IMG/VR virus record: IMGVR_UViG_3300025570_000011
Span: 6,190-70,189 of that record
Source: a virus
Lineage: Duplodnaviria > Caudoviricetes
Reading direction: 5' to 3' (one strand)
DNA: 64,000 bases
The notes under the pieces were generated by a model. That model was not told the DNA's origin. It saw nothing but the letters and a program-made list of their open reading frames with translations, and did not search any database. Below, one piece after another: positions 6,956 to 47,370 of the stretch (position 1 is the first letter of the stretch; every line of letters begins with the position of its first letter). Made by a program: the position numbers and the translations under genes.

Positions 6956-7939
6956 ATGAGCAATCCCACAATCTTTGATGAGCAGGTAAGCAGAAAACCT
7001 AATCATTATCCATGGACCGAAGCCTTTATTGAAAGCATGCACAACGGCTTTTGGACCGACAAAGAATTTAGTTTTAAAAGTGATATCCATCAATTTAAAA
7101 CAGTCCTAACCGAACAAGAACAACAAATTATTATTCGTGATCTAAGCGCGATTGGTCAAATTGAAGTTGCTGTAAAAACATTTTGGGCTAAGCTTGGAGA
7201 GAACCTTCCACACCCATCACTTCAAGATCTTGGGTATGTTATGGCCAACACTGAAGTTATTCATAACAATGCTTATGAACGTCTTATTTCTATTTTAGAT
7301 ATGGAGGATGTGTTTGAAGAGAATCTTAAATTGGATTTTATTCAAGGCCGAGTTAATTATCTTAAGAAATATACTCACCGGTTCTATAAAGATAGTAAGA
7401 AGCAATACTTATATGCTATTACATTATTTACTTTGTTTGTTGAGAACGTTTCGTTGTTTTCTCAATTCTACGTTATTAACTGGTTTGCTCGTTATAGAAA
7501 CGTTTTAAAAGACACTGATCAACAAGTAAAATATACTCGTAATGAAGAGCGTATCCACGCAATGGTTGGTATGAAAATTATTAATACCATTCGTGAAGAG
7601 CTTCCTGAGTTATTTGATGATGAACTTGAAGAGCGTATTGTTGCTGCAGCGCATGAAGCGTTTAAAGCCGAATCCAAAATTATTGATTGGGTCGTTAATG
7701 GTATTGACGAAGAAGGTTTATCTGCTCCAATTCTAAAAGAGTTTATTAAGAATAGAATTAATGCAAGCATGGGCGATATTGGTTTTCAAAAGCCATTTGA
7801 AATTGACGAAAAATTGCTTGAATCTACTATGTGGTTTGAAGAAGAACTTCATGGTAATAATATGACTGACTTCTTCCATAGCAGACCTGTTGAATATTCT
7901 AAAAAGAGCCAATCTTTTGATGAAGATGACTTGTTTTAA
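6956..7939 (+). CDS. nrdB: Ribonucleotide reductase class Ia beta subunit
   Basis: FWTDKE, EVIHNNAY (ExxH + Tyr radical), VENVSLFSQF, EERIH, C-terminal DFF...EYSK...DDLF. Confidence 0.95.
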   Translation: MSNPTIFDEQVSRKPNHYPWTEAFIESMHNGFWTDKEFSFKSDIHQFKTVLTEQEQQIIIRDLSAIGQIEVAVKTFWAKLGENLPHPSLQDLGYVMANTEVIHNNAYERLISILDMEDVFEENLKLDFIQGRVNYLKKYTHRFYKDSKKQYLYAITLFTLFVENVSLFSQFYVINWFARYRNVLKDTDQQVKYTRNEERIHAMVGMKIINTIREELPELFDDELEERIVAAAHEAFKAESKIIDWVVNGIDEEGLSAPILKEFIKNRINASMGDIGFQKPFEIDEKLLESTMWFEEELHGNNMTDFFHSRPVEYSKKSQSFDEDDLF

Positions 7940-7960
7940 TATGTATATATAATTTAACAA

Positions 7961-9625
7961 ATGATTGATAACGAATTAAACATCGATTGGCTTAATAAAG
8001 ATTCTCGTAAATTTCTTGAAAGAGGTTACTTAATTGAGGGCGAAACACCAGAGCAAAGGATGCGTGATATTTCTACTCACGCTGAAACACTTTTAGGTAT
8101 TAAAGGGTTTGCTCTTAAATTTGAAGATTACTTACATAAAGGATTTTATTCTCTTTCGAGCCCTATTTGGAGTAACTTTGGAAGAACTCGTGGTTTACCT
8201 ATTAGTTGTTTTGGATCTTATATTGAAGATACTCTTGAATCTATAACAGGCCATAAGCTTGCTGAAATCTCCATGATGACAAAACATGGCGGAGGAACTT
8301 CTGCTTACTTTGGCGCATTACGTGGACGAGGAGCTAAGATTGGTGAGGATCAAGGGACAAGCACAGGAGCCGTTCACTTCATGGAACTATATGATAAGTT
8401 GATGAATGTCGTATCACAGGGAAATGTCCGTCGTGGATCCTTTGCGGCATACCTTCCAATTGATCATCCAGATGTTGAAGAGTTTCTTAAGATTAGAAGT
8501 GATGGTCATGAGATTCAAGATATGTCAATTGGCGTTTGTGTATCAGATGACTTCATGAAAACAATGCTTGAAGGCGACAAAGAGAAACGTCGTATCTGGG
8601 GATTGGTTATTAAGAAACGTTTTGAAAGTGGTTATCCATATATCTTCTTTACGGATAACGTAGAAAATCAAAAACCACAAGTTTATAAAGATAAAGATAA
8701 ACGCATCCACGCAAGTAACCTTTGTAATGAAATTTACTTAAGCACTGATAAGGATGAAAGCTTTGTGTGCAACCTTAGTTCATTGAACTTAGAAAAATGG
8801 GATGAGATTCAAGAGACTGACGCTATTGAAACACTGATCTATTTTCTTGATTCGGTAATGACAGAGTTCATTGATAAAACTGAGGGTATGCCATTTATGG
8901 ATTGCGCTAGAAGGTTTGCTAAAAACCAACGAGCTCTTGGATTAGGCGTTCTTGGATGGCATAGTTATCTTCAATCTAAAATGATTGCATTTGAAAGTCT
9001 TGAAGCTCAATTACATAATACTCAGGTCTGGTCAACAATTCGAACAAAAGCTGATAAAGCTACTGCCGAACTTGCTGAGATATATGGCGAACCTAAACTG
9101 CTTGAAGGTTATGGTAAAAGAAATTCAACGACATTGGCGGTTGCTCCAACAACTTCTTCTAGTTTTATTCTTGGACAAACAAGTCCAAGTATTGAACCAC
9201 TTAATAGTAATTACTTTACAAAGGATTTGGCTAAGGGTAAATTCACATATAAGAATCCACATCTAAAAGAACTATTAAGGCAAAGAGGTATGGATACTCT
9301 TCAAGTTTGGAAAGATATCTTGGAGCATGGTGGATCTGTTCAACATATTGAAGGATTAACCGAAGAAGAAAAGGACGTGTTTAAAACGTTTGGAGAAATT
9401 AGCCAAAGAGAAATTGTTCTTCAGGCGGCTCAACGCCAACAATTTATTGATCAAGGACAAAGTTTAAATATTATGATTCACCCTAAAGCGAAACCTAAGG
9501 ACGTAAACGAACTAATGATATTTGCATGGGAGAATGGGATTAAAGGTATGTACTATCAACGAAGTGCAAACCCTGCTCAGGAACTAGCTAGATCGTTGAT
9601 GACATGTAAAACGTGCGAAGGATAA
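7961..9625 (+). CDS. nrdA: Ribonucleotide reductase class Ia alpha subunit (short, no N-terminal ATP cone)
   Basis: PISCF, GGGTS, SQGNVRRG, SNLCNEI, CNLSSLN, APTTSSS, IDQGQSLN, KGMYY, C-terminal CKTCEG. Confidence 0.95.
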   Translation: MIDNELNIDWLNKDSRKFLERGYLIEGETPEQRMRDISTHAETLLGIKGFALKFEDYLHKGFYSLSSPIWSNFGRTRGLPISCFGSYIEDTLESITGHKLAEISMMTKHGGGTSAYFGALRGRGAKIGEDQGTSTGAVHFMELYDKLMNVVSQGNVRRGSFAAYLPIDHPDVEEFLKIRSDGHEIQDMSIGVCVSDDFMKTMLEGDKEKRRIWGLVIKKRFESGYPYIFFTDNVENQKPQVYKDKDKRIHASNLCNEIYLSTDKDESFVCNLSSLNLEKWDEIQETDAIETLIYFLDSVMTEFIDKTEGMPFMDCARRFAKNQRALGLGVLGWHSYLQSKMIAFESLEAQLHNTQVWSTIRTKADKATAELAEIYGEPKLLEGYGKRNSTTLAVAPTTSSSFILGQTSPSIEPLNSNYFTKDLAKGKFTYKNPHLKELLRQRGMDTLQVWKDILEHGGSVQHIEGLTEEEKDVFKTFGEISQREIVLQAAQRQQFIDQGQSLNIMIHPKAKPKDVNELMIFAWENGIKGMYYQRSANPAQELARSLMTCKTCEG

Positions 9626-9886: not shown

Positions 9887-9980
9887 AAACCCTTATTCTA
9901 AGGGAGTTGTAGAGTAAAATGTGCATTTTGTGAATTATTTTATTTACAAATGTGCCTTTTTATGGTATAATATAACTACA
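9887..9980 (+). repeat. ~95 bp early-promoter cassette, copy 1 (copy 2 at 50151-50245)
   Basis: Shares AAAATGTGCATTTTGTGAATTATTTTATTTACAAATG...TTTTATGGTATAATAT and an upstream AAACCCT..TTCTA.GGG element with copy 2. Confidence 0.85.
9943..9971 (+). promoter_or_regulatory. Strong early promoter TTTACA-N17-TATAAT with extended -10 and AT-rich UP element
   Basis: TTTACA 9943-9948, TGGTATAAT ending 9971; heads a small-ORF island. Confidence 0.8.
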
Positions 9981-10017
9981 GAGAGGGACACCAACCAACC
10001 CGATCAACCACCACAAA

Positions 10018-10242
10018 ATGTACAAATATACTTACACCGAACATCAGCAGAATCCCCCTTCACTTGGAGGCGATTGGGAATGCGGCACAGAGACCGTCGT
10101 CTGCTTCTCAAAAAGCCCAAAGAAGGCATGCAGCCTTAAGGGTATCGTTTCCCGCAAATTCGAAGGCACCTGCGGGTGTCCAATCATGGCCTACGAAAAG
10201 CTGGAGTTCAATGGCAAGGTGATTTTCGATCGCGATCACTAA
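10018..10242 (+). CDS. Early hypothetical protein
   Basis: First ORF after promoter; noticeably GC-richer than the genome. Confidence 0.6.
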   Translation: MYKYTYTEHQQNPPSLGGDWECGTETVVCFSKSPKKACSLKGIVSRKFEGTCGCPIMAYEKLEFNGKVIFDRDH

Positions 10243-10256
10243 TAACCAAAACGACC

Positions 10257-10337
10257 ATGATTCATATAGCCGAACTTTTTACCGCCATTCTCATCCTCGC
10301 CGCATCATTCATCTTTTTGATCGCCTGCGCAGCCTAA
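10257..10337 (+). CDS. Small hydrophobic peptide (26 aa, MIHIAELFTAILILAASFIFLIACAA)
   Basis: Read manually; single TM-like segment in the early island. Confidence 0.45.
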   Translation: MIHIAELFTAILILAASFIFLIACAA

Positions 10338-10357
10338 CTACAACCAACCAATATATT

Positions 10358-10606
10358 ATGACAACAAAACCAAATCGCACTCACTGCTACAGATTTACTG
10401 TAGAGATGGACAATGAAGAAGATATGAAATCTCTGGCTACGTTCAGAAAATCATTCTATGGGACTAACCAATATGTAAAATGTCAAGGCCGTTGGGGTGA
10501 GAATAACCCCAATTATAAAAGAAGCTGCAACTTCCTAGGACAGACGCGATCGTTCTGCCCAGTTTCACTTGCCTCACATTGCGACGTTTACGTTTACTTT
10601 CGATAA
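10358..10606 (+). CDS. Early hypothetical protein
   Basis: ORF track; AT-rich leader AATATATTATG typical of this genome. Confidence 0.6.
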   Translation: MTTKPNRTHCYRFTVEMDNEEDMKSLATFRKSFYGTNQYVKCQGRWGENNPNYKRSCNFLGQTRSFCPVSLASHCDVYVYFR

Positions 10607-10609
10607 GAC

Positions 10610-10696
10610 ATGAATTTAATAAGAATCACCCTTATGACGATAGTCTGCGCCATCTTTTGGTACTGGGTAGTAAGATTAATATTACTAATTTTTTAA
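10610..10696 (+). CDS. Small hydrophobic peptide (28 aa, MNLIRITLMTIVCAIFWYWVVRLILLIF)
   Basis: Read manually; fills the gap exactly between neighbours. Confidence 0.45.
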   Translation: MNLIRITLMTIVCAIFWYWVVRLILLIF

Positions 10697-10697
10697 G

Positions 10698-10913
10698 ATG
10701 AAATCAATAATATTACAAAAACTATTAACTGAGTTTCCTCACTCACAGAATGTTGAAATCGACGGAAAGGTAAAGAGTATCCCAGAACTAACTGAGGAAA
10801 ACTTTTGGACCTTAATTAAAAGCCACAACGAACTTATTGAAAAGTTCAATTACGCTATTCACAATTTAAATACAGAGTGTAAAGAACTAAGAAATAAACT
10901 AAATCAAAAATAA
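10698..10913 (+). CDS. Early hypothetical protein
   Basis: ORF track. Confidence 0.55.
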   Translation: MKSIILQKLLTEFPHSQNVEIDGKVKSIPELTEENFWTLIKSHNELIEKFNYAIHNLNTECKELRNKLNQK

Positions 10914-10930
10914 AAACCATTAATTATATT

Positions 10931-11149
10931 ATGAAAAAAACAACCAGCGCTAAATTCGAAAAACTGAAAGCCAATATTGCTAAACTTGAACTTCAAAAGG
11001 GAGATAAAACTAACTTTGGCTCAGTTATTAAAGTAGGCGAAACAGGAATCACTTTTAAGAATACATACTCACCAAAGACAAGAATCATGTTTATCCAACG
11101 CAAGTTTGGAAGAAACGAATATGTATTGAATGACCTAATTAAACTTTAA
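10931..11149 (+). CDS. Early hypothetical protein
   Basis: ORF track; AATTATATTATG leader. Confidence 0.6.
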   Translation: MKKTTSAKFEKLKANIAKLELQKGDKTNFGSVIKVGETGITFKNTYSPKTRIMFIQRKFGRNEYVLNDLIKL

Positions 11150-11151
11150 TT

Positions 11152-11325
11152 ATGAAAGAAACAAATTACACTACAAACATTAAGGCCGGTGATTCTGTGA
11201 TGGTTAACGGTATGCAAATTATCGTTAATGAGAATTGCGGAAACGGCTGCTTTTATGGAACAGATTGTGATGGCGATGAGATCGAATTCGCCACCGAAGA
11301 AATCTTAGCAGTTGTTCCAGATTAA
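11152..11325 (+). CDS. Small acidic hypothetical protein (57 aa, not in ORF track)
   Basis: MKETNYTTNIKAGDSVMVNG...VVPD*; fills the gap. Confidence 0.55.
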   Translation: MKETNYTTNIKAGDSVMVNGMQIIVNENCGNGCFYGTDCDGDEIEFATEEILAVVPD

Positions 11326-11334
11326 TATAATAAT

Positions 11335-11532
11335 ATGGAAAAGATAGAAGAGCTAAAACAAAAGTATATTTTTGACCGTTTGGAATGCCTTAAGTGGGAT
11401 TCAAAATATTACAAATATAAAAACACAAAGCTATCATCAGAGCTTGAAAAGAGCGAAGCTAAGCTCGTTGATATTTTAAAAGAGATTCGTGAACTTGAAA
11501 GTCTCCGTGTTAGACCAAAGAAAAATAAATAA
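11335..11532 (+). CDS. Hypothetical protein
   Basis: ORF track. Confidence 0.5.
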   Translation: MEKIEELKQKYIFDRLECLKWDSKYYKYKNTKLSSELEKSEAKLVDILKEIRELESLRVRPKKNK

Positions 11533-11535
11533 AAA

Positions 11536-11604
11536 GGGGGTGTAAAAGAATTCGACGCTAGTTTCGGCTAACGGACCCGGGCGCGATACCCGGCACCTCC
11601 ACCA
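11536..11604 (+). ncRNA. Miniature tmRNA (tRNA-like domain only, no mRNA-like domain)
   Basis: GGGGGTG/CACCTCC acceptor stem with G3.U70, A discriminator and encoded CCA; tmRNA-type stemless D-loop ending ATTCGAC; short P2 capped by TTCG; GGAC then T-arm CCGGG-CGCGATA-CCCGG. Confidence 0.8.
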
Positions 11605-11612
11605 TTTAAAAT

Positions 11613-11651
11613 AAAACACCCGCACTGGTTTAATTCAGAGCGGGTGTTTTT
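11613..11651. terminator. Bidirectional intrinsic terminator
   Basis: AAAACACCCGC...GCGGGTGTTTT inverted repeat between convergent transcription units. Confidence 0.8.
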
Positions 11652-11664
11652 CTAAATGTATATC

Positions 11665-12018
11665 TTACTTAAGGTTTGGCTCGTCTTTTTCTGTTGAGTA
11701 TTCTGCTAAAAACTCTCTTAATTCATTAATGTCATTTGCGTTTAAGCTCATGAATGTTCTTCGAGCCGAACCAGATGTGCGGCTTTCACTAACCTTTTCA
11801 ATCTCTAAACATTTACGAGTGCCTAACTTTGATTCCAATTCATCAGGGCCAATAAATTCAAGAAGCTTAAATGTGGAGTTTGCATGTGTTCCTCCATCTT
11901 CCCATCCAGCCAATTCGGTTTTTTCAAGCAGAACCTTTGCTTCTTCTTTAATGGGTTTACCCTCAAGAATCGCCTTAGCCGCATCTTCAAGCCTTTTGTT
12001 TTTATTTGATAGATTCAT
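11665..12018 (-). CDS. Putative internal head protein, MNLSN-leader family member 3
   Basis: Leader MNLSNKNKRLEDAAKAILEG shared with two neighbours; body paralogous to C-half of 12357-12785. Confidence 0.6.
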   Translation of the reverse strand: MNLSNKNKRLEDAAKAILEGKPIKEEAKVLLEKTELAGWEDGGTHANSTFKLLEFIGPDELESKLGTRKCLEIEKVSESRTSGSARRTFMSLNANDINELREFLAEYSTEKDEPNLK

Positions 12019-12021
12019 ATA

Positions 12022-12360
12022 TTAAATTTTTTCTATTGAAGTAATGTTTGGATAGTTTGGTTTATTACTTAGAACTACTTTAACTTTATCTCCTGCTTTA
12101 TACTTCTTGCTAAGCTTTGGATCAAAACCGAATTCGGCTTTCATACCGCTCTTGTTTTTCTTGTCATACCCTTTGAAAGTCATAACCCAGGCTTTACCAA
12201 ACTTACCAGGCGATCTTTGAACTTGTGAAACGCTAGAAATTGTAAGATCCAATTCCTTTCCGAGATTCTTATTAAGAAAATCATTATGAATAATTGCATT
12301 CTCACTCATAATTGCCTTTGCCGCTTCTTCAAGACTGTTATTTCTATTTGATAAGTTCAT
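12022..12360 (-). CDS. Putative internal head protein, MNLSN-leader family member 2 (possible OB-fold body)
   Basis: Leader MNLSNRNNSLEEAAKAIMSE; unrelated beta-rich body (YKAGDKVKVVL). Confidence 0.55.
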   Translation of the reverse strand: MNLSNRNNSLEEAAKAIMSENAIIHNDFLNKNLGKELDLTISSVSQVQRSPGKFGKAWVMTFKGYDKKNKSGMKAEFGFDPKLSKKYKAGDKVKVVLSNKPNYPNITSIEKI

Positions 12361-12785
12361 TTGATCTTATTTAAAAGTTTTTGTAGAACGTCAACGTCAG
12401 ACATATTAAGTTCAATATACTTTTTGCCAATTGTAATTTGTACCATTTTACGTGTACCAATTTTATCTTCAAGATCCTTTGGACCAGCAAATTGTGTTAG
12501 TTCAGCATATTCATTGGCAGTTCTTCCGCCACTAGTCCAAGCTTTAATTTTAGTAGCTTCATCAAGTTCAACACCTTCTTTAATCTTTTTACCTTTAAGC
12601 TTCATTAAAACTTTAATGATAACCTTTGGCCCAAAGCCCGCTTGCATTAGAGCGTTATTAATATCTTCCCAACGATAGGCGTCACCGTTAACTTCTTGAA
12701 GAGTTTCTTCAATTTCAATAGTGTTGCCTTCGAGAATTGCTTTAGCAACATTTTCTAAAGCTTCATTTTTATTTGATAGGTTCAT
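12357..12785 (-). CDS. Putative internal head protein, MNLSN-leader family member 1
   Basis: Leader MNLSNKNEALENVAKAILEG; minus-strand late promoter at 12824-12831. Confidence 0.6.
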   Translation of the reverse strand: MNLSNKNEALENVAKAILEGNTIEIEETLQEVNGDAYRWEDINNALMQAGFGPKVIIKVLMKLKGKKIKEGVELDEATKIKAWTSGGRTANEYAELTQFAGPKDLEDKIGTRKMVQITIGKKYIELNMSDVDVLQKLLNKIK

Positions 12786-12823
12786 TGTTTATTATATTTA
12801 TGTATAGTTAATTTATGTATAGT

Positions 12824-12831
12824 TATTTATA
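12824..12831 (-). promoter_or_regulatory. Late promoter TATAAATA (minus strand)
   Basis: TATTTATA on plus strand upstream of 12785. Confidence 0.6.
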
Positions 12832-12835
12832 AAAG

Positions 12836-13210
12836 CTAATCCTTTTCAGCATCTGCAGCTTCACGAGTTTTCTTTGACATTTTTATTGCCCAATCAACAC
12901 CAGGATCGCCACCCCAACCAAGCCAGGCCATATATCCATTATCTGTCCATGGGCGGTCTTTCTTTTCAGGGGAAATTTTAGAGTTTTTTCTATGCCTATT
13001 AAATGATGCCATTCTTTTTAATATATCATAAGAGATCTCATCTCCATCAGCAAGTTGGCGAGCTCTTACCCATCCAGTGCGAGTCATTGCTTTAACTTCA
13101 TTGGGGTATTTCTCTTTCCACTCAATAGCCTTTTTAGCTGCTGCAACTGCTCCAGCCGGTGGTTGAAACTTTTGTTCTTCCTCTTTGATAAAATCTTTAA
13201 ACGGGATCAT
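12836..13210 (-). CDS. Conserved phage head-associated domain protein with capsid-targeting-like leader
   Basis: MIPFKDFIKEE leader; TGWVRARQL...RMASFNRH...GYMAWLGWGGDPG motif seen in many phage head-module proteins; late promoter at 13219-13226 (minus). Confidence 0.6.
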   Translation of the reverse strand: MIPFKDFIKEEEQKFQPPAGAVAAAKKAIEWKEKYPNEVKAMTRTGWVRARQLADGDEISYDILKRMASFNRHRKNSKISPEKKDRPWTDNGYMAWLGWGGDPGVDWAIKMSKKTREAADAEKD

Positions 13211-13247: not shown

Positions 13248-13658
13248 ATGTGGTTATATAACGATAAAGAATTTACAACTGAGATGATCGAGGATTATGT
13301 TGGATTTGTTTATCTAGTAACTTTCGATAATGGAATGAAATATATCGGAAAAAAACGGTTTTGGAGTAAGGTGACTCGTCCTCCGTTAAAAGGAAAGAAA
13401 AGAAAGCGCAGATCTTTAAAGGAATCTGATTGGAAAACTTACTGTGGATCAAGTGAAGCTGTTAAAGAATTAATAGAAGAGAATGGCTTAGATTCTGTCA
13501 AAAGAGAGATACTGCACTTATGTAAAGGAGCAGGAGAACTCTCCTACATGGAAACAAAGGAACAATTTGATAGAGAAGTTTTATTACGCGAGGATTATCA
13601 CAATGGCATAATAAGTTGCCGTATTCATCATTCTCATGTGAAAATACTGAAACAATAG
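13248..13658 (+). CDS. GIY-YIG family endonuclease-like protein
   Basis: GFVYLVT...KYIGKK, Y.GSS, conserved Glu and YHNG. Confidence 0.7.
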   Translation: MWLYNDKEFTTEMIEDYVGFVYLVTFDNGMKYIGKKRFWSKVTRPPLKGKKRKRRSLKESDWKTYCGSSEAVKELIEENGLDSVKREILHLCKGAGELSYMETKEQFDREVLLREDYHNGIISCRIHHSHVKILKQ

Positions 13659-13715: not shown

Positions 13716-14585
13716 ATGATAATTATCGACTTCTCAGCAATATCAATCGCCTCCGTATTTTCTCAACCAGCAAATACTTTAGATGAATCCATGATTCGCC
13801 ACTTTATTCTTAATTCATTAAGGATGTATAATGTAAAATACAGATCAGAATATGGCGAGATGGTTATTGCTTGCGACCATAGAAGCTGGCGCAAATCGGT
13901 TTATCCAGAATATAAAGCGGCCCGTAAGAAAACCAGAGAGAAAAGTAATATTGATTGGACAGAAGTTTTTGGTATGATTGATAAAGTAAAACAAGAGCTT
14001 ATAGAGTTTTTCCCTTATCCTGTGGTTCATGTTAATGGTGCAGAAGCAGATGATATTATTGCTACACTTGTTGAAAGCACTCAGGAGTTTGGTAAACATG
14101 AAAAGGTAATGATTGTTAGTTCTGATAAAGACTTTATTCAATTGCAGAAATATTCAAATGTTAAACAGTTTAGCCCAGGCCAAAAGAAAGCAGTTACCGA
14201 TCCTTCTCCTGCGATGTATTTGTTCGAGCATGTTCTTAGAGGCGACGCTGGTGACGGCGTTCCAAACGTTCTATCAAGCGATGATACTTTTGTTACAGCA
14301 AAACGCCAAACTCCTTTAAGTAAAGTTAAGATTAAAAAATGGCATGAAGAATCAAAGACTAAAGATCTAAAAGATGTCCTTGACGAAAATACATATAGGA
14401 ATTACATACGTAACCAAACTATGATTGACCTATCAAAGATTCCCAGCGAAGTAGTGCAAGATATCCAAGCCGAGTATCAAAAAGAAGAAAACCAAAAAAA
14501 TGATAATTCAAAGATACTGAATTATCTAATTCAAAATAGATGCAACCAGCTCGTAAATTGTGCTGATGAATTCTTTATAAAATAA
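13716..14585 (+). CDS. rnh: T4-type RNase H / 5'-3' exonuclease
   Basis: IIIDFS, SWRK..YPEYKAAR, EADDIIA, SSDKDFIQL, GDAGDGVPN. Confidence 0.92.
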   Translation: MIIIDFSAISIASVFSQPANTLDESMIRHFILNSLRMYNVKYRSEYGEMVIACDHRSWRKSVYPEYKAARKKTREKSNIDWTEVFGMIDKVKQELIEFFPYPVVHVNGAEADDIIATLVESTQEFGKHEKVMIVSSDKDFIQLQKYSNVKQFSPGQKKAVTDPSPAMYLFEHVLRGDAGDGVPNVLSSDDTFVTAKRQTPLSKVKIKKWHEESKTKDLKDVLDENTYRNYIRNQTMIDLSKIPSEVVQDIQAEYQKEENQKNDNSKILNYLIQNRCNQLVNCADEFFIK

Positions 14586-15058: not shown

Positions 15059-15316
15059 ATGACATATGAATATACATGTTTAAGCTGTGAAGAACGCTGG
15101 GATGCTCGTTATCCTGTAGATGATAGAGATATCCCTTTAAGCGAACCTTGCCCAAAATGCGGAGTTGAAGGACAGGTTAAAAGAGTTCCAACCGCGGTTC
15201 GTGTTTCATATGAAGGTTTTCAAAGCCCTATTACAAGAGCTGGTGGAGAATGGAATGACGTGCTTAAATCTATTAAAAAGGGAGCAGGTAAAAAATCCAC
15301 TATTGAAACTAAATAA
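15059..15316 (+). CDS. FmdB-like zinc-ribbon regulatory protein
   Basis: TYEYTCLSC...CPKCG, W.DVLKSIKK; start moved to ATG 15059. Confidence 0.7.
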   Translation: MTYEYTCLSCEERWDARYPVDDRDIPLSEPCPKCGVEGQVKRVPTAVRVSYEGFQSPITRAGGEWNDVLKSIKKGAGKKSTIETK

Positions 15317-16029
15317 TGTCGCTACGATCTTTATTATCAAAACCAATTAGAGGTACTACTTTTAATCATTTGCCTACTTCAATTGGTTATGACGATTTGG
15401 TTTGCGAAACTAAAACATCTGGTAGAAAATATATAACTCCAGAAGGCACGGCATATCCAAGTATTACAACCGTTCTCGGTTCCTTAAGTAAAGAAGGAAT
15501 CGAAGCTTGGAAGAAACGAGTAGGCGAAGAAGAAGCTAATCGAATTTGTCAACATGCTTGCACTCGAGGAACTGCAATGCATGAAGCTATTGAGCAATAT
15601 CTTAATAACGAAGAAGATTGGTTTGCGCCAAATGAAATGCCAAACGTTAAAGCATTGTTTAATGCGGTTCGTCCAGTTCTTGATGAAAGAGTAACTAATA
15701 TATATTTACAGGAAGGCGCTCTTTATTCTGATCATTTAAAACTTGCGGGTCGTGTTGATTGTATCGCTGAGTTTGATGGCAAGCTTTCAATCATTGATTT
15801 TAAAACCGCGAGGCAAGCTAAAAAGAAAGAATATATTACTAGTTACTTCATGCAAGCATCTGCTTACGCTATTATGTTTGAAGAACGAACCGGAATCCCC
15901 GTAACACAAACAGTTATTCTAATGGCAGTTGATGACTCGCCCACACCAATCGTGTTTAAAGAAAAACGCGATAACTATACAAAACAATTAATTGAAACTA
16001 TACAAAACTATTATGATACAACCCGATAA
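15316..16029 (+). CDS. PD-(D/E)xK exonuclease (Cas4/lambda-exonuclease-like)
   Basis: YPSITTVL, RGTAMH, AGRVDCI, IIDFKT, YFMQASAY. Confidence 0.85.
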   Translation: MSLRSLLSKPIRGTTFNHLPTSIGYDDLVCETKTSGRKYITPEGTAYPSITTVLGSLSKEGIEAWKKRVGEEEANRICQHACTRGTAMHEAIEQYLNNEEDWFAPNEMPNVKALFNAVRPVLDERVTNIYLQEGALYSDHLKLAGRVDCIAEFDGKLSIIDFKTARQAKKKEYITSYFMQASAYAIMFEERTGIPVTQTVILMAVDDSPTPIVFKEKRDNYTKQLIETIQNYYDTTR

Positions 16030-16678
16030 CAATAAAAGAAATGAGAGTGAGCCGTCGTTAAAAGATATGATGGTCCAAAGACGCAACGATCCATTTGTTA
16101 CTGACTATGGTACAATTTCTGATTTTTATATTTCATCTCAGATCGGACCAGCCTCAGATTATATTGATTGGTTTCAACGAATTCGTGCAGCACGTGAATC
16201 TGATATTATTCGCTTTCATATTAATTGCCCAGGTGGGGATTTGTTTACAACGATTCAATTTATGCAAGTTCTTTCAGAGACTAAAGCAACAGTTGTTATG
16301 TGTGTTGAAGGCGCATGTATGTCAGCTGCGACTCTTCTATTTTTAATGGGTGATGAGTTTACAGTAACCGATCATAGTGTGTTTCTTTTCCATAACTATT
16401 CAGGTGGAGTTGTTGGAAAGGGCGCAGAAATTTATCACGGCGTAATGCATGAAAGAAAGTGGACTGAGAAACTACTAAGGCACGCATATGAAGGGTTTCT
16501 AACTACAAATGAAATTTCACAGCTTGTCGAAGATAAAGATGTTTGGATGGATGCCGAAACTGTTATTGCTAGGTTAAAAGAAAAAGAAACAATGGGCGAA
16601 GTTAAGCCTATTAAGACTAAAAAGAAAACTACTAAAAAGAAAACCACTAAAAGAAAAACTATTAAAAAGAAATCATAA
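16013..16678 (+). CDS. ClpP-like serine protease with Lys-rich tail
   Basis: INCPGG, CMSAAT (Ser), FLFHN (His), KDVWM (Asp); start moved to ATG 16013. Confidence 0.8.
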   Translation: MIQPDNNKRNESEPSLKDMMVQRRNDPFVTDYGTISDFYISSQIGPASDYIDWFQRIRAARESDIIRFHINCPGGDLFTTIQFMQVLSETKATVVMCVEGACMSAATLLFLMGDEFTVTDHSVFLFHNYSGGVVGKGAEIYHGVMHERKWTEKLLRHAYEGFLTTNEISQLVEDKDVWMDAETVIARLKEKETMGEVKPIKTKKKTTKKKTTKRKTIKKKS

Positions 16679-16944
16679 TGAAACAAACAAATATAAATCA
16701 ACCAGATTACCACTTTAAACGTCGCTTAGCTTTTGGTATATTAAATGAAGTTGGCGAGGAAGAGTTAGATGAATTTCAAAAAGAAATAATGATTGATGTC
16801 TCAGCTGAATATGAATTCATTAAAAATAAAACCAGTAGTTTATCAAAAATGCAACGCGATCAAATTGAACAAGCATATGTTGGTATTCAAAACACTTTAG
16901 CTAATAAAGCCAAAGCAGATATAAAATCAAAGGAAGAAGAGTAA
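16678..16944 (+). CDS. Hypothetical protein
   Basis: ORF track; coupled TAATG junctions. Confidence 0.6.
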   Translation: MKQTNINQPDYHFKRRLAFGILNEVGEEELDEFQKEIMIDVSAEYEFIKNKTSSLSKMQRDQIEQAYVGIQNTLANKAKADIKSKEEE

Positions 16945-17171
16945 TGAAAACTTTAATATTAGCAACAAGTAAATTTTGCGGTCCTTGTAAACTTTTAAAA
17001 AGTGAGTTTGAAAAGAAAGGTATCGATATAGAATATAAAGATTCTATTGAAGATGTAAACTTTTTTATTGAAAATAAAATTAAAAGTGTGCCGACATTAG
17101 TGTTAATAAACGGTGATAAAATTATTGGAGCTGAAGCTATTATGAAAAGTTTGAAGGAACATTATATTTGA
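16944..17171 (+). CDS. Thioredoxin/glutaredoxin-like protein
   Basis: CGPC active site and SVPTL cis-Pro motif. Confidence 0.85.
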   Translation: MKTLILATSKFCGPCKLLKSEFEKKGIDIEYKDSIEDVNFFIENKIKSVPTLVLINGDKIIGAEAIMKSLKEHYI

Positions 17172-17220
17172 TAAATAATATTATATCAAAGGTGACGTTG
17201 ATATATTAATTCACTTATAA

Positions 17221-17228
17221 TATAAATA
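17221..17228 (+). promoter_or_regulatory. Late promoter TATAAATA
   Basis: Immediately upstream of the structural gene at 17234. Confidence 0.7.
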
Positions 17229-17233
17229 ATACT

Positions 17234-20200
17234 ATGTCAACCAATATCGATTTGCATGCCGACAAAGGCAGCACTTTTTCTGTAGCCGTCAATGTTGAAA
17301 ACAAAGACGGCTCTGCTTTTGATTGTACCGGCTACAATGTTAGAGGACAAGTTAGGAAAACTTATAAATCCGAATATGGAGTAAACCTTTCATGTGATTA
17401 TATTGATCAAGCTGATGGTCTTATAGGTTTATCATTGACCTCAGAAGAAACCGCTGCTATGAAGGCCGGGCGGTATTATTATGATGCTGAGATTTTCAGT
17501 GACAGCGGCACAGTAATTAGAGTTTTAGAAGGTATCTTCGAAGTTAGCCCACGTGTTATTAGTGAGACTTCGGACTTGGGGCTGGGCGATAATACCGATC
17601 CAGTACCCGATTCGCATGCACTTAGGAGAGACAATCCTCATCAAGTTGCTCCCGATCAAATTGGACTAGGCAACGTAGATAATACAGCCGACGCAACCAA
17701 ACCCGTATCTGGACCAACTCAAACTGCTTTAAATTTAAAAGCAGATCAATCAACTACATATACTAAAACAGAAGTTGATACAAAAGTTACTAATTTAATT
17801 GATTCCGCGCCCGGTGCATTAAATACTCTTAATGAATTGGCTGAGGCTCTTGGCGATGACGAGAATTTTGCATCTACTGTCAACTCGGCTATTGCTAGTA
17901 ATTCAAGTGGAATAACAGCTTTAAACAGTCATGCCTTAAGTAAAACCAATCCGCATGATGTTTCTTTAGAACAGTTAATTGATGTTGATTTTCTTTCAAA
18001 TCCGCCGGCGCAGGGCCAAGGTATTCTCTATGATACAGATTCTCAAACATGGGTAGCTGCAGATATTGAGGGTGGTACAGGAACAGGTGGCCCAGTAGAA
18101 TTAACTGACCAAACTCATTCTATATATGTTTCTAAGACTGGTAATAATATTAACCAGGGTTTAAATATTGATGATGCAAAATTAACAATAACCAGTGCTG
18201 TGAATGCAGCGCAAACTTTAATAGCTGAACCAGGGTTTGTAGGAAGTGTAAGAATTGATGTTTTAGATGGTGGCAGATACTTTGAAGGAAATGTAAACAT
18301 TTCAGATAACATTCACGTGTTTGCGCCAACATCAACATTTATTGGAAACCTTACTATTGGTAATAATTCATCCTGTGTTATTGATACTCATTATGCCGAC
18401 ACAAACACACCTGGCTCCACTTTAGTTAATTTTGTTAATGCAACAAATTCTTACTATACTGCTAATACTTTAGATATGCGAGGTGAAGCCGGTTCACAAA
18501 CCGGTGGCATTGGTATTAGGTCTGAACAGAGTATTAACAGGTGTAAAGTAAATATTGGCGAGATTTATATTCCAACTGACGCAAAAGGATATCAAAGTGA
18601 TGAAGACGGTAATTTAACTTTTGGCAGAGTAAATCTTACAGGCGATAACTCATTCGCGTTTTACTTATTTGGCTTAGATGGAAATGCAAAAACTGATATA
18701 ACATGCGGGGAAATTATTGCATCTCCAATAGGCAGTAATACTATGGCCGTTTACTGTAATACTGATAATTCAAAAACAACTTTAATATGTGGCCAGATAG
18801 ATGTAGCTAAAGTTTATTCTATACCAAAGGCAACAGCTGAACTTTATATAATTTGCCCTAAAATTAGTGGTGATAGAACTCAAAATATTATTGGAGTTGT
18901 AAAAGAAATTTCAGATATTACTTTTGATTTAAAAGCAGATCAAACCGCGTTGACCGCACACGTTTCTGATGCAACCAATCCTCATACCGTAACTGCTACT
19001 CAAGTTGGTTTAGGCAACGTAGATAATACGGCCGATTCAACCAAACCCGTATCTGGACCAACACAAACTGCTTTAAGTTTAAAGGCAAATTCATCTGATT
19101 TATCTAATCACGTTTCTGATTCAACTAATCCTCATACCGTAACTGCTACTCAAGTTGGACTTGGTAACGTAGATAATACATCTGATATTAATAAACCAGT
19201 TAGTACAGCAACACAAACTGCTTTAAATTCAAAGGCCAATTCATCTGATTTATCTAATCACGTTTCTGATTCAACTAATCCTCATACCGTAACTGCTACT
19301 CAAGTTGGACTTGGTAACGTAGATAATACATCTGATGCAACCAAACCCGTATCTGTACCAACTCAAACTGCTTTAAATTTAAAGGCAAATTCATCTGATT
19401 TATCTAATCACGTTTCTGATTCAACTAATCCTCATACCGTAACTGCTACTCAAGTTGGTTTAGGAAATGTTAATAATACATCTGATATTAATAAACCAGT
19501 TAGTACAGCAACTCAAACTGCTTTAAATTTAAAAGCAGATCAATTAACTACATATACTAAAACAGAAGTTGATGCTGCTATAGGTGATGTGGGTGGAGGT
19601 GATTTAACCGCTGATGTTACATCTGATGTTAATGTTGGAAGTATTTCAACGGCTGATGTTGTTACAAGCGGCACGACTTTGCAAGAGTTTGTAGAGCAGT
19701 TATTGAAACAAACATATTTTCCAACTTTCGTAAACCCCTCTGCATCCCTTACTGATAATCTAGCCTCATCAGTAGAAGCTGGTACAACGGGAATTAATCT
19801 ATCGGCCGGCTTTAATGCAGGCGCAATTAACGGAGCTCTCACTGATAATATTTGGGATCCAGGCCTAAAGCAAGCAAACAGAGCCGGGGCAGCAAACTCA
19901 TACGAATTTAGTGGAACTTCTATAATTACAACAACACAGGGCGGATCTACTTTAAGTCAACCTGCTGTTGTAATTACAGATGGTGCTAATACTTTTAATG
20001 TTTCTATTGATTACGCAGAAGGCCCGCAACCACTTGACAGCGTGGGCAGCAATTATTTAAGCCCACTGCCAGCTGGAAGCGTGGTGAAGTCGCTAACCGT
20101 AAATGGAAGACGAAGAGCTTTTTATGGAACTAACCTCAGTGATAATACTAGTGCTGGTATAAGAGCTTTATCTAATAGTGTTTTAAACCCAGGGAATGGC

Positions 20201-20449
20201 TCGTCTTTCACAATTAACATTCCTGCTGGTGCAGTAAGTGTTAATTTCTCTTACCCAAATACTCTTCGAAATGTTACTAGTGTTCTTTATGCAGAAGGTC
20301 TTAATGCAGATGTTAAGGGATCTTTTGGATCACCCACTCTGGTTGATGTAGAAGGAGCCAATGGATTTAGCGCCATATCTTATAAAGTATATTCATTCAC
20401 ACCACCTTCACCATTTGAAGCTAGCGCAACTTACACTGTAACAATTTAA
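17234..20449 (+). CDS. Virion structural / tail-fibre protein with 50-aa repeats
   Basis: N-terminal adaptor domain (KGSTFS...TGYNVRGQVRK...GRYYYD...RVLEG), NPHTVTATQVGLGNVDNT..KPVS repeats, APGALNTLNELAEAL fibre motif. Confidence 0.8.
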   Translation: MSTNIDLHADKGSTFSVAVNVENKDGSAFDCTGYNVRGQVRKTYKSEYGVNLSCDYIDQADGLIGLSLTSEETAAMKAGRYYYDAEIFSDSGTVIRVLEGIFEVSPRVISETSDLGLGDNTDPVPDSHALRRDNPHQVAPDQIGLGNVDNTADATKPVSGPTQTALNLKADQSTTYTKTEVDTKVTNLIDSAPGALNTLNELAEALGDDENFASTVNSAIASNSSGITALNSHALSKTNPHDVSLEQLIDVDFLSNPPAQGQGILYDTDSQTWVAADIEGGTGTGGPVELTDQTHSIYVSKTGNNINQGLNIDDAKLTITSAVNAAQTLIAEPGFVGSVRIDVLDGGRYFEGNVNISDNIHVFAPTSTFIGNLTIGNNSSCVIDTHYADTNTPGSTLVNFVNATNSYYTANTLDMRGEAGSQTGGIGIRSEQSINRCKVNIGEIYIPTDAKGYQSDEDGNLTFGRVNLTGDNSFAFYLFGLDGNAKTDITCGEIIASPIGSNTMAVYCNTDNSKTTLICGQIDVAKVYSIPKATAELYIICPKISGDRTQNIIGVVKEISDITFDLKADQTALTAHVSDATNPHTVTATQVGLGNVDNTADSTKPVSGPTQTALSLKANSSDLSNHVSDSTNPHTVTATQVGLGNVDNTSDINKPVSTATQTALNSKANSSDLSNHVSDSTNPHTVTATQVGLGNVDNTSDATKPVSVPTQTALNLKANSSDLSNHVSDSTNPHTVTATQVGLGNVNNTSDINKPVSTATQTALNLKADQLTTYTKTEVDAAIGDVGGGDLTADVTSDVNVGSISTADVVTSGTTLQEFVEQLLKQTYFPTFVNPSASLTDNLASSVEAGTTGINLSAGFNAGAINGALTDNIWDPGLKQANRAGAANSYEFSGTSIITTTQGGSTLSQPAVVITDGANTFNVSIDYAEGPQPLDSVGSNYLSPLPAGSVVKSLTVNGRRRAFYGTNLSDNTSAGIRALSNSVLNPGNGSSFTINIPAGAVSVNFSYPNTLRNVTSVLYAEGLNADVKGSFGSPTLVDVEGANGFSAISYKVYSFTPPSPFEASATYTVTI
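18955..19555 (+). repeat. 150-bp in-frame tandem repeat x4
   Basis: CGTTTCTGAT anchors at 18961, 19111, 19261, 19411; a further copy near 17630-17780. Confidence 0.9.
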
Positions 20450-47293: not shown

Positions 47294-47370
47294 GGGGGTA
47301 TAGCTCAGTTGGTTAGTAGCGGGGTGCTCATAACGCCTAGGTCACTGGTTCGAGTCCAGTTGCCCCTACC
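47294..47370 (+). tRNA. tRNA with CAT anticodon (elongator Met or Ile2; not initiator)
   Basis: Acceptor GGGGGTA/TGCCCCT, D-arm TAGCTCAGTTGGTTAG, anticodon loop CTCATAA, T-arm ACTGG-TTCGAGT-CCAGT; lacks the three consecutive G-C anticodon-stem pairs of fMet; ends ACC, no terminal A. Confidence 0.9.

What the first reader, a model, noticed from the sequence alone, without database searches (positions are those of the whole stretch)
11536..11604. A 69-nt 'mini-tmRNA': intact alanyl-tRNA-like domain with the entire mRNA-like domain replaced by a UUCG hairpin
Seen: GGGGGTG TAAAAGAATTCGAC GCTAGT-TTCG-GCTAAC GGAC CCGGG-CGCGATA-CCCGG CACCTCC ACCA. The acceptor stem pairs fully with G3.U70, followed by A73 and an encoded CCA. 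There is no D-stem, but a tmRNA-style loop ending (A)TTCGAC. The helix that normally leads to the pseudoknots and tag ORF is 6 bp (one mismatch) closed by UUCG, followed by the tmRNA-typical GGAC and T-arm. It is the last element of an early transcription unit, just before a terminator. Established: G3.U70 is the AlaRS determinant, and SmpB binds this elbow. From memory, tag-less tmRNAs occur in jakobid mitochondria and a reduced one in a mycobacteriophage, so there is precedent but it is rare. Inference: the RNA could be charged with Ala and, with host SmpB, accept peptides from stalled ribosomes without adding a degradation tag. Alternatively it may titrate SmpB and disable host trans-translation, for example countering mRNA/tRNA-cleaving abortive-infection toxins. 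tRNA and tmRNA finders would likely miss it because it has no anticodon arm and no tag ORF.
Basis: partly seen in the sequence, partly recalled or inferred. Interest (0 to 1): 0.88.

Follow-up and report, generated by a model that had tools for sequence, protein, structure and literature searches.

The report
Phage tag-less mini-tmRNA gene
An uncultured T4-like aquatic phage carries a real 69-base gene for only the alanine-accepting, tRNA-like end of the bacterial ribosome-rescue RNA (tmRNA), a type already known from mycobacteriophage DS6A, and it probably interferes with or replaces the host's rescue-and-tagging system.

Summary
Window 11536-11604 (+) is a 69-nt tmRNA tRNA-like domain (TLD) with no pseudoknots or tag frame. 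Rfam tmRNA aligns end to end with 308 positions deleted (37.6 and 46.2 bits; cut-off 47). ARAGORN misses it.

It belongs to a family. A motif scan of IMG/VR gave 103 loci, and 63 hold one-piece TLD-only genes (44 unique sequences, 64-85 nt). On 45 sequences including DS6A, 98.6% of cells pair and 12 of 18 pairs show compensatory changes. G3.U70 and A73 never vary, and control scans with other letters gave 0 structured hits of 27 and of 16.

The kind is known: mycobacteriophage DS6A is listed as 'TLD only', and a similar molecule is reported to inhibit E. coli tmRNA. This scan has also reported such genes on other DNA many times.

Three points are specific here:
- Both acceptor strands and the T stem equal those of permuted two-piece tmRNAs of small-genome Alphaproteobacteria.
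- Related phages carry full two-piece tmRNAs with ...ALAA tags.
- None of 11 TLD-only phage records encodes SmpB.

Best reading (0.5): the RNA is charged with alanine, bound by host SmpB, and competes at stalled ribosomes without tagging. It is a new member of a known kind.

The parts
11536..11604 (+). TLD-only (tag-less) tmRNA gene, 69 nt
   Evidence: RF00023 global alignment at 37.6 and 46.2 bits. Model R1 scores it 54.1 bits. It is 69/69 identical in L010, L014, L030, L081 and L087, and 66/69 in L012.
11536..11542 (+). 5' acceptor strand GGGGGUG (G3 of the G3.U70 pair at 11538)
   Evidence: Pairs 7/7 with 11594-11600. Identical to the 5' acceptor strand of the coding piece of a permuted alphaproteobacterial tmRNA, L154.
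11543..11556 (+). D-loop analogue UAAAAGAAUUC plus GAC (tmRNA motif AUUCGAC); no D stem
   Evidence: Aligned to RF00023 consensus positions ...GGaUUCGAC.
11557..11572 (+). P2-replacing hairpin GCUAGU-UUCG-GCUAAC
   Evidence: Read from the sequence. The equivalent hairpin is present with different sequences in all 44 unique family members. Helix 2: 5 of 6 pairs show compensatory changes.
11573..11576 (+). GGAC junction motif
   Evidence: Aligned to the RF00023 consensus GGAC.
11577..11593 (+). T arm CCGGG-CGCGAUA-CCCGG
   Evidence: Identical to the T arm of a Rickettsiaceae MAG's permuted tmRNA. The first pair changes C-G to U-A in L012. T stem cells are 100% paired, and 4 of 5 pairs covary.
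11594..11604 (+). 3' acceptor strand CACCUCC (U70 at 11598), discriminator A73, encoded CCA
   Evidence: G3.U70 in 45/45 sequences. Control scans with non-U70 or non-A73 gave no structured element.
11613..11651 (.). Bidirectional intrinsic-terminator-like hairpin between the element and the convergent genes
   Evidence: Folds at -22.0 kcal/mol, with an A tract before it and a T run after it. Conserved, with changes that keep the pairing, in L010, L012 and L030. Metatranscriptome contigs of two studies break at 11659-11664 (weak hint only).
9943..9971 (+). Best sigma-70-like promoter candidate for the unit that ends with the element
   Evidence: TTTACA-17-TATAAT with TG, 11 of 12 matches. Consensus match only.
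10018..11532 (+). Run of small ORFs (57-82 aa) upstream on the same strand, no family assigned
   Evidence: ORF lists. No significant Pfam family for the five scanned (one weak sub-threshold AAA_13 match) and no PHROG hit for the one scanned. The last ORF is replaced by unrelated sequence in L012.

Best explanation
This is a genuine phage gene for a TLD-only (tag-less) tmRNA.

Proposed steps, all inferred unless marked:
1. It is transcribed with the upstream small genes. It is then cut out like a tRNA: RNase P at the 5' end, trimming to the encoded CCA at the 3' end.
2. Host alanyl-tRNA synthetase charges it with alanine through G3.U70 and A73.
3. Host SmpB binds it. No SmpB gene was found in this record or in ten other TLD-only phage records searched.
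4. EF-Tu delivers it to ribosomes stalled on broken mRNA, where it competes with the host's own two-piece tmRNA.
5. The nascent chain can be passed to its alanine, but there is no resume codon and no tag frame. The product therefore gets no degradation tag, and the ribosome must be freed some other way (drop-off with peptidyl-tRNA hydrolase, or an ArfB-type factor).

The net effect is that SsrA tagging is suppressed, or rescue is uncoupled from proteolysis, during infection.

Shown here: the gene, its conserved fold, its invariant alanine identity elements, and its copying of an alphaproteobacterial TLD. Steps 1 to 5 are not shown for this RNA.
For: Identity:
- RF00023 aligns end to end.
- An independent model gives 54.1 bits for this element and 43.2 bits for DS6A.

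Fold under selection (45 sequences):
- 98.6% of cells pair, against 74.5% in shuffles.
- Covariation score is 0.612, against 0.142 in shuffles (0 of 500 reach it) and at most 0.105 when partners are slid.
- 12 of 18 pairs show compensatory changes.
- Within this lineage, L012 differs at 3 of 69 positions. Two of these form a compensatory C-G to U-A change in the T stem. The 100 nt upstream are unrelated (59/100).

Charging under selection:
- G3.U70 is present in 45/45 sequences, although A-U would have passed my filter.
- Scans that allow any other letter at position 70 or 73 found 27 and 16 stretches. None had both a 5/5 T stem and an acceptor of at least 6/7. The original scan gave 63 of 103 that did.

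Processed like a tRNA: some members sit beside or inside tRNA gene arrays (L042, L075, and L099 inside a 20-tRNA array).

Host factors:
- SmpB (PF01668) was found in 0 of 11 TLD-only viral records, 3 of them at least 96% complete.
- Both acceptor strands and the T stem equal those of permuted alpha_tmRNA genes in 17 of 401 sampled alphaproteobacterial genomes of 1.2-2.4 Mb. The whole T arm equals that of a Rickettsiaceae MAG.

Literature (passages read):
- SmpB binds TLD fragments and raises aminoacylation (PMC3022190).
- Peptidyl transfer to a TLD-only truncated tmRNA occurs in vitro (Shimizu & Ueda 2006, as cited in PMC3895274).
- A truncated tmRNA with SmpB and EF-Tu was crystallised on the ribosome (PMC8363625).
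- A DS6A-like molecule strongly inhibits tmRNA in E. coli (PMC4131195; PMC11915505).
Against: - No direct evidence of transcription, processing, charging or SmpB binding for this RNA. Metatranscriptome runs hold the region only as contigs, which may derive from DNA.
[quoted passage not shown] Charging is therefore not needed for the one effect that has been measured.
- No release factor travels with the gene. RF-1/ArfB (PF00472) and peptidyl-tRNA hydrolase (PF01195) were found in 0 of 5 records. How a ribosome holding peptidyl-Ala-TLD would be freed is unknown, and trapping ribosomes would also hurt the phage.
- My family sample was drawn with a pattern that fixes AUUCGAC, GGAC and CUCCACCA. 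Conservation of those motifs is therefore built in, apart from the two control scans and DS6A.
- The alignment used was fitted to the model.
- The T loop CGCGAUA departs from the usual UUCGAAU. The single-sequence minimum-energy fold is not the TLD fold.
- The record is only 34% complete, so an SmpB gene or a second tmRNA gene elsewhere in this phage cannot be excluded.
Confidence: 0.5

Rival explanations
1. Pure sponge. The RNA only soaks up host SmpB (and perhaps AlaRS or EF-Tu) away from the ribosome. That shuts down host trans-translation. Charging and ribosome entry are irrelevant.
For: [quoted passage not shown] No SmpB gene was found in 11 TLD-only phage records. DS6A's own element ends ...CACUA, without an encoded CCA.
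Against: A sponge needs no alanine identity. Yet G3.U70 (45/45) and A73 never vary while neighbouring acceptor pairs 5-7 change freely. Control scans found no structured element with other letters at those positions. Related phages carry complete two-piece tmRNAs with ...ALAA tags, which is hard to reconcile with shutting the pathway down.
Confidence: 0.25
2. A tRNA-like element with a role outside trans-translation. Options include a processing or stabilising signal at the end of the operon, a decoy for a defence nuclease that attacks tRNA or tmRNA, or a decoy for tRNA-modifying or CCA-adding enzymes.
For: It is the last feature before a terminator, on the same strand as a run of small genes. 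It has no anticodon arm, so anticodon nucleases could not cut it (inference). Neighbouring genes give no hint of function.
Against: The conserved parts are exactly the tmRNA-specific ones, as aligned by RF00023. The RNA copies the acceptor and T stems of alphaproteobacterial tmRNA, not of a tRNA. Across the family, genomic contexts differ: upstream of a terminase-like gene, inside tRNA arrays, here after nucleotide-metabolism genes. That argues against a local cis role.
Confidence: 0.12
3. Not a working gene: an attachment-site remnant or a decaying fragment of a captured tmRNA gene.
For: tmRNA genes are common integration sites, and fragments of ssrA occur in prophages (PMC9004378 passage).
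Against: An attP core copies only the 3' end of the target gene. Here both halves of the acceptor stem are present and paired. No integrase (PF00589) is in the record, and the gene content is T4-like and lytic in style. Strong covariation was seen. The 5' edge of conservation against L012 falls sharply at the element.
Confidence: 0.03

Closest known systems
'TLD only' (CDS-less, standard-order) tmRNA of Mycobacterium phage DS6A (JN698994 28478-28560; Hudson, Lau & Williams 2014 PMC4131195; Mao et al. 2009, not held)
   Same: A phage-encoded, one-piece RNA made of acceptor stem with G3.U70, D-loop analogue, short P2 hairpin and T arm, with no pseudoknots or tag frame. It aligns to RF00023 in the same way (34.7 bits, 312 positions deleted). 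My model built from other phages finds it too (43.2 bits).
   Different: DS6A's element is 83 nt, 69% G+C, from a temperate actinophage. It has a canonical UUCGAUU T loop and ends CACUA rather than ACCA. The window's is 69 nt, from a 36% G+C T4-like aquatic phage, with the T loop CGCGAUA, an encoded CCA, and stems that match alphaproteobacterial two-piece tmRNA.
CDS-less organellar tmRNAs: mitochondrial mt-tmRNA (RF02544; jakobids, oomycetes) and ~65-bp plastid forms of Mallomonadaceae (PMC11915505 passages)
   Same: A tmRNA reduced to little more than the TLD and retained together with SmpB, so presumably working without a tag. Mitochondria descend from Alphaproteobacteria, whose tmRNA is permuted. 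Jakoba libera's gene is 're-permuted' to one piece, as this phage RNA appears to be.
   Different: RF02544 does not match the window's record. The control genomes did not ring for that family either, so the miss is weak. Those RNAs belong to the cell's own reduced system, not to a virus acting on a host that keeps a full tmRNA.
Laboratory TLD fragments of tmRNA used for SmpB co-crystals and in vitro trans-translation (passages of PMC3022190, PMC3895274, PMC8363625)
   Same: The same design: P2 closed by a short loop. Such fragments bind SmpB, enter ribosomes with EF-Tu and accept the peptide in vitro.
   Different: They are engineered from bacterial tmRNAs. This one is natural, phage-borne and under selection.
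Complete permuted two-piece tmRNA genes of aquatic and alphaproteobacterial phages (Melnitz-type myophages PMC9004378; Sphingobium phage Lacusarx ssrA; Rhodobacter phage RcSimone-Hastad)
   Same: The 3' half is 88-94% identical to the window's. The IMG/VR phages carrying them share three genes with this phage at 31-50% amino-acid identity.
   Different: They keep the coding piece with tags ending ...ALAA and are permuted. The window's gene is one piece, has no tag, and sits at a different place in the genome. No remnant lies beside the shared PD-(D/E)XK gene.

Membership tests
tmRNA, TLD-only / 'standard, no CDS' form | 7-bp acceptor stem with G3.U70, discriminator A73 and a 3' CCA | tested here: met
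   Read from the sequence. Aligned to RF00023. G3.U70 in 45/45 family sequences.
tmRNA, TLD-only / 'standard, no CDS' form | D-loop analogue without a D stem ending in UUCGAC, and a GGAC junction before the T arm | tested here: met
   RF00023 alignment: AAUUCGAC and GGAC match the consensus.
tmRNA, TLD-only / 'standard, no CDS' form | T arm of 5 pairs with a 7-nt loop | tested here: met
   CCGGG-CGCGAUA-CCCGG. The loop is atypical (C54, G55) but identical to that of a bacterial alpha_tmRNA.
tmRNA, TLD-only / 'standard, no CDS' form | No pseudoknots, resume codon or tag frame; P2 closed by a short loop | tested here: met
   308 of 374 model positions are deleted, and only 16 nt lie between GAC and GGAC. 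ARAGORN finds no tag peptide.
tmRNA (Rfam RF00023) | Score at or above the curated gathering threshold (47 bits) | tested here: not met
   37.6 bits and 46.2 bits. Other TLD-only members pass: 4 of 5, and L005 at 69.9 bits.
tmRNA (functional definition) | Tag-encoding mRNA-like domain that lets translation resume and terminate | tested here: not met
   Absent. The RNA therefore cannot carry out full trans-translation.
tmRNA (functional definition) | Alanylation by AlaRS, and binding of SmpB and EF-Tu | not testable with these tools
   Inferred only, from conserved identity elements and from published work on TLD fragments.
tmRNA (functional definition) | Expressed as a discrete, processed small RNA | tested here: inconclusive
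   Contigs from RNA libraries of 3 studies were laid on the 3-kb stretch. Contigs of 2 runs of one study (X1, X2) span the element, and contigs of 2 studies break at the terminator. Contigs cannot show ends, strand or level, and DNA may be present.
Permuted two-piece tmRNA (RF04321 / RF01849) | Gene order: acceptor piece, then intervening segment, then coding piece | tested here: not met
   Only partial matches: 33.9 bits, 3'-truncated, and 21.9 bits. The 5' acceptor strand lies upstream of the T arm, and a terminator follows the CCA.
Mitochondrial mt-tmRNA (RF02544) | Match to the family model | tested here: inconclusive
   No match in the record, but the family rang in none of the 14 control genomes.
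tRNA (RF00005 / ARAGORN) | Cloverleaf with D arm and anticodon arm | tested here: not met
   Not called by ARAGORN or by RF00005 at gathering. There is no anticodon arm in the sequence.

The most novel reading that the evidence does not exclude
TLD-only RNAs are not mere inhibitors. They form a widespread phage-run, tag-free branch of ribosome rescue. Ala-TLD with host SmpB takes the nascent chain off ribosomes stalled on mRNA shredded during infection. An as yet unidentified host or phage factor then releases it. Ribosomes are recycled without sending truncated, often phage-derived, proteins to ClpXP or Lon.

In this lineage the one-piece RNA would have been rebuilt ('re-permuted') from the two halves of an alphaproteobacterial two-piece tmRNA. 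That parallels what happened in jakobid mitochondria. It would replace the full two-piece tmRNA that sister phages carry.
Probability: 0.3. Interest if true: 0.7.

Novelty: new member of a known kind. Interest (0 to 1): 0.5.

Why it matters
Trans-translation is the main ribosome-rescue pathway of bacteria and is being pursued as an antibiotic target. One TLD-only phage RNA has been described, and a similar molecule was tested once, in E. coli.

This element, and the 63 others found with one simple pattern, show three things:
- Phages of very different types keep such genes under selection.
- The alanine identity is kept intact.
- No SmpB gene was found in any of the records searched.

Standard annotation tools miss them: ARAGORN, and Rfam at its cut-off in this case.

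This instance adds a clean natural comparison. Related aquatic T4-like phages carry either a full, tag-encoding two-piece tmRNA or this tag-less one-piece version. The tag-less version is modelled on the TLD of small-genome Alphaproteobacteria. That pair of forms could be used to ask whether phages want more rescue, less tagging, or both.

If the tag-free rescue reading is right, an unknown release step remains to be found.

Tried and rejected
Searches and analyses that led nowhere:
- Megablast of the 2-kb region against isolate phages: no match.
- Distant blastn of the element, of a group-B element and of L005's element. These found only T-arm/acceptor matches to permuted phage tmRNAs, to tRNA-Ser genes of T5-like phages and to one Tunturiibacter phage. 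No isolate phage with a whole similar TLD-only gene turned up this way.
- Neighbour-gene clustering over 64 loci, window included, with Pfam and PHROGs scans of the recurrent neighbours. All shared neighbours are lineage-specific: a terminase-like gene, L5 gp82-like, DUF7178 and unknowns. No translation or rescue factor recurs.
- SmpB, RF-1/ArfB and Pth searches in the phage records: none found. Most records are incomplete.
- MAFFT alignment A1 misaligned the 5' strands, so I did not use it for counts.
- D-loop/T-loop co-variation: AG before AUUC goes with T loop UGC in 22 of 22 unique sequences, and GG goes with UUC in 8 of 13. It follows clades, so I do not count it as evidence.
- Identity of the element in the five ~94%-identical relatives says nothing, because their upstream 400 nt are also 399/400 identical.
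- Metatranscriptome contigs cannot show transcription. Parts of the stretch without cover in X5 and X6 mean nothing.
- A remnant of a two-piece tmRNA at window 15900-17300: none.
- ARAGORN's 343-nt 'tmRNA' in L005, L017 and L090: rejected, because Rfam picks the 85-nt form at 69.9 bits.

Literature searches:
- Searches for a wider description of phage TLD-only tmRNAs found only the DS6A statements.
- Mao et al. 2009 is not held, so I know it only through citing passages.
- Supplementary tables of PMC11915505 (the list of 9 'standard, no CDS' and 79 phage sequences) and of PMC9004378 were not seen. They may list relatives.
Full report
OBSERVATION

- Rfam's tmRNA model RF00023 aligns from its first to its last position with 308 internal positions deleted. 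The score is 37.6 bits (E 2.3e-14 on an 88-nt stretch) and 46.2 bits on the whole record (E 1.1e-18). Both are just under the gathering score of 47.
- ARAGORN and Rfam at gathering threshold report only a tRNA-Met at 47294.
- A hairpin at 11613-11650 (-22.0 kcal/mol), with an A tract before it and a T run after it, follows the CCA and faces convergent minus-strand genes (11665-13210).
- For the isolated RNA, ViennaRNA prefers another central pairing (-25.8 against -22.1 kcal/mol for the TLD fold). The fold therefore has to be argued from comparison.

GENOMIC SETTING

The window is part of a 70,189-base IMG/VR virus record, estimated 34% complete, with 36% G+C.
- Upstream lie ribonucleotide reductase small and large subunits (6956-9625).
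- Next comes a good sigma-70-like site at 9943-9971. Such sites are no more frequent here than in shuffles.
- Then come small ORFs without family, and then the element.
- Downstream are a SegE-like GIY-YIG endonuclease, T4-type RNase H, DUF6433, a PD-(D/E)XK protein and large tail-fibre-like proteins.

This is T4-like, lytic-style content. No integrase is found, nor SmpB, nor RF-1/ArfB or Pth.

FAMILY

One pattern, ATTCGAC-N(6-36)-GGAC-N20-CTCCACCA, found 103 stretches in IMG/VR.
- In 63 of the 103 a 5' strand complementary to the 3' acceptor strand (at least 6 of 7 pairs) lies 7-25 nt upstream. This gives complete one-piece TLD-only elements of 64-85 nt, 44 unique sequences.
- Five loci carry the window's exact sequence. 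L012 carries a variant.
- The other 40 of the 103 lack the 5' strand. By eye most are acceptor pieces of permuted two-piece tmRNA genes. ARAGORN called a permuted tmRNA with a tag ending ...ALAA in 8 of the 12 such IMG/VR loci I tested.
- ARAGORN run on 60 of the 63 TLD-only loci called none of them as such. In L005, L017 and L090 it called a 343-nt tmRNA with an implausible 30-residue tag. Rfam instead picks the 85-nt form at 69.9 bits.
- Seven of those 60 loci hold tRNA genes. In L042 and L075 these lie close to the element, and in L099 the element sits inside a 20-tRNA array.

COVARIATION

I built model R1 from 20 elements, not including the window's lineage or DS6A.
- It scores the window's element at 54.1 bits (the only hit in the window) and DS6A's at 43.2 bits.
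- On the 45-sequence model alignment, 98.6% of 801 cells form standard pairs, against 74.5% in shuffles.
- The covariation score is 0.612, against 0.142 in shuffles (0 of 500 reach it) and at most 0.105 when partners are slid.
- 12 of 18 pairs show changes on both sides. The T stem is 100% paired with 4 of 5 pairs covarying, and the P2 helix has 5 of 6 pairs covarying.

Caveats: the alignment is fitted to the model; the pattern fixed acceptor pairs 1-4; and my filter required acceptor pairing.

Within the window's own lineage, L012 differs at 3 of 69 positions. One lies in the C.A mismatch of the hairpin. The other two form a compensatory C-G to U-A change in the T stem. The 100 nt upstream are unrelated (59/100) and the 100 nt downstream are 94/100 identical. 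The five ~94% relatives are uninformative, because their flanks are just as conserved.

ALANINE IDENTITY

- G3.U70 is present in 45 of 45 sequences, although A3-U70 would have passed my filter.
- A control scan with any letter but T at position 70 gave 27 stretches. None has both a 5/5 T stem and an acceptor of at least 6/7.
- A control scan with any letter but A at position 73 gave 16 stretches, and none qualifies. Six of them share one sequence with a 4/5 T stem and a 5/7 acceptor.
- These controls also set the chance background of the pattern at roughly 5-9 stretches per letter.

The elements that make a helix a substrate of AlaRS are thus kept while neighbouring pairs change freely. The identity rule itself is established knowledge that I recalled, not a tool result.

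WHOSE TLD IS COPIED

- The 3' half is 94% identical to an unannotated stretch of Rhodobacter phage RcSimone-Hastad and 88% identical to the annotated ssrA of Sphingobium phage Lacusarx. Both are permuted two-piece genes.
- A scan of bacterial genomes with a loosened T-arm pattern found 2 stretches, both alphaproteobacterial. One is a Rickettsiaceae MAG whose T arm is identical to the window's.
- Among 401 sampled genomes of that class, 18 match the 32-nt 3' end with at most 2 mismatches. Seventeen of these (genomes of 1.2-2.4 Mb) share a sequence with the same T stem and the same 3' acceptor strand, differing only at two T-loop positions.
- Three of three loci checked are full alpha_tmRNA genes at 199-249 bits.
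- In L154 the coding piece begins GGGGGUG-AAAUAGGAUCGACG, with the same 5' acceptor strand as the window.

The phage RNA therefore equals the two TLD halves of an alphaproteobacterial two-piece tmRNA, joined in one piece by a hairpin. The host is probably a small-genome aquatic alphaproteobacterium; this is an inference. Metatranscriptome runs labelled marine and freshwater hold the region.

RELATED PHAGES WITH FULL tmRNA

- The window's PD-(D/E)XK gene (15316-16029) has homologues at 43-50% identity in 28 of the 40 loci without a 5' strand.
- In the three I checked (L100, L043, L054) that homologue lies about 400-480 nt upstream of the permuted tmRNA.
- RNase H and DUF6433 homologues occur in 4 of them.
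- The window has no tmRNA remnant beside its copy of that gene.

Related aquatic T4-like phages thus carry either a complete tag-encoding tmRNA or, as here, a tag-less TLD at another place.

EXPRESSION

Contigs from RNA libraries of 3 studies were laid on the 3-kb stretch, and contigs of two runs of one study span the element itself.
- One 1903-nt contig (X1) spans 10216-12108. Of its 34 differences, 31 are listed, and none falls in 11536-11604.
- Contigs of X2 and X5 break at 11659-11664, at the terminator.
- Contigs cannot show transcription, ends or strand, so this is a weak hint only.

WHAT IS KNOWN

- Hudson, Lau & Williams 2014 (PMC4131195, passages) list 'Mycobacterium phage DS6A (TLD only)'. 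They state that a similar molecule, chargeable or not, strongly inhibits tmRNA, perhaps by titrating SmpB (Mao et al. 2009, not held).
- The 2025 tmRNA database paper (PMC11915505, passages) counts 9 'standard, no CDS' and 72 'permuted, no CDS' among 97,179 sequences. It took viruses from RefSeq only. It also mentions ~65-bp plastid forms and tag-less mitochondrial tmRNAs.
- I fetched DS6A's element. It aligns to RF00023 in the same manner, at 34.7 bits.
- TLD fragments bind SmpB, enter ribosomes with EF-Tu and accept peptides in vitro (passages).
- This scan has reported TLD-only phage genes on other DNA many times. Those notes agree with my reading, and two of them gave me the DS6A coordinates.

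MECHANISM AND VERDICT

That this is a real TLD-only tmRNA gene is close to certain. How it acts is inferred.
- Best reading (0.5): charged with alanine, bound by host SmpB, competing with host tmRNA at stalled ribosomes, so that tagging is suppressed or rescue is uncoupled from proteolysis.
- Pure SmpB sponge (0.25): fits the one cited experiment but not the invariant alanine identity.
- A role outside trans-translation (0.12).
- A remnant (0.03).

The release step after peptidyl transfer is unexplained. This is a new member of a known kind. Three features are of moderate interest: its alphaproteobacterial, 're-permuted' make-up; the sister phages with full tmRNAs; and the breadth of the family that standard annotation misses.

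Noticed in passing
L006, L018, L024, L031, L043, L045, L050, L051, L054, L055, L059, L062, L066, L067, L069-L072, L076, L083, L089, L096, L100, L102-L104 and others (40 of the 103 loci): Most of these are acceptor pieces of permuted two-piece tmRNA genes in aquatic T4-like phage contigs. ARAGORN gives tags such as ANDNFAPSGFALAA in 8 of 12 tested. In 28 of the 40 loci a PD-(D/E)XK gene homologous to window 15316-16029 is present. It lies 400-480 nt upstream of the tmRNA in the three loci checked.
   Followed up: partly
L106 (MW677525.1, Rhodobacter phage RcSimone-Hastad) 1437-1850: ARAGORN calls a permuted tmRNA gene (tag ANDNVRMDAQALAA) in a stretch between gp36 and gp35 where the record has no annotated feature.
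   Followed up: partly
L005 2976-3318, L017, L090: ARAGORN calls a 343-nt tmRNA with a 30-residue tag that runs through an internal GGGGGCG...AUUCGAC. Rfam instead scores only the last 85 nt (69.9 bits) as a TLD-only tmRNA. Annotation pipelines may therefore report a wrong full-length tmRNA here.
   Followed up: yes
window 11571-11604, run X2 (table 7): A metatranscriptome contig matches only the GGAC/T arm/acceptor/CCA part and continues with unrelated sequence on both sides. It is probably another tmRNA in the same sample, possibly the host's acceptor piece, that shares this 3' end.
   Followed up: no
family alignment: The two bases before AUUC in the D-loop analogue track the first T-loop bases. 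AG goes with UGC in 22 of 22 unique sequences and GG goes with UUC in 8 of 13. This may reflect the elbow tertiary contact, but it follows clades.
   Followed up: partly
L138, L140, L145, L148, L151, L153: Six loci share one sequence with GGGG..AUUCGAC..GGAC..CUCCGCCA. The discriminator is G, the T stem pairs 4/5 and the acceptor 5/7. It may be a degenerate TLD-like element or a chance match inside a conserved gene.
   Followed up: no
window 13248-13658 (+): A SegE-like GIY-YIG homing endonuclease gene (Pfam PF19835, E 7e-38) lies 1.6 kb downstream of the element, next to T4-type RNase H (13716-14585).
   Followed up: no
window 17632-17779; L014 1697-2294; L087 10835-11245: A unit of about 110-150 nt at the start of the large tail-fibre-like gene (17234-20449) recurs three to four times, about 150 nt apart, in the relatives L014 and L087. 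This points to a variable repeat number in that gene.
   Followed up: no
window 47294-47370 (+): tRNA-Met (CAU), 54.3 bits to RF00005. It is the only canonical tRNA gene in the window.
   Followed up: no
window 9948-10014 (table 7): Several metatranscriptome contigs of runs X1 and X2 diverge from the window at 9948-10014, around the promoter-like site. This suggests a mosaic boundary between strains.
   Followed up: no
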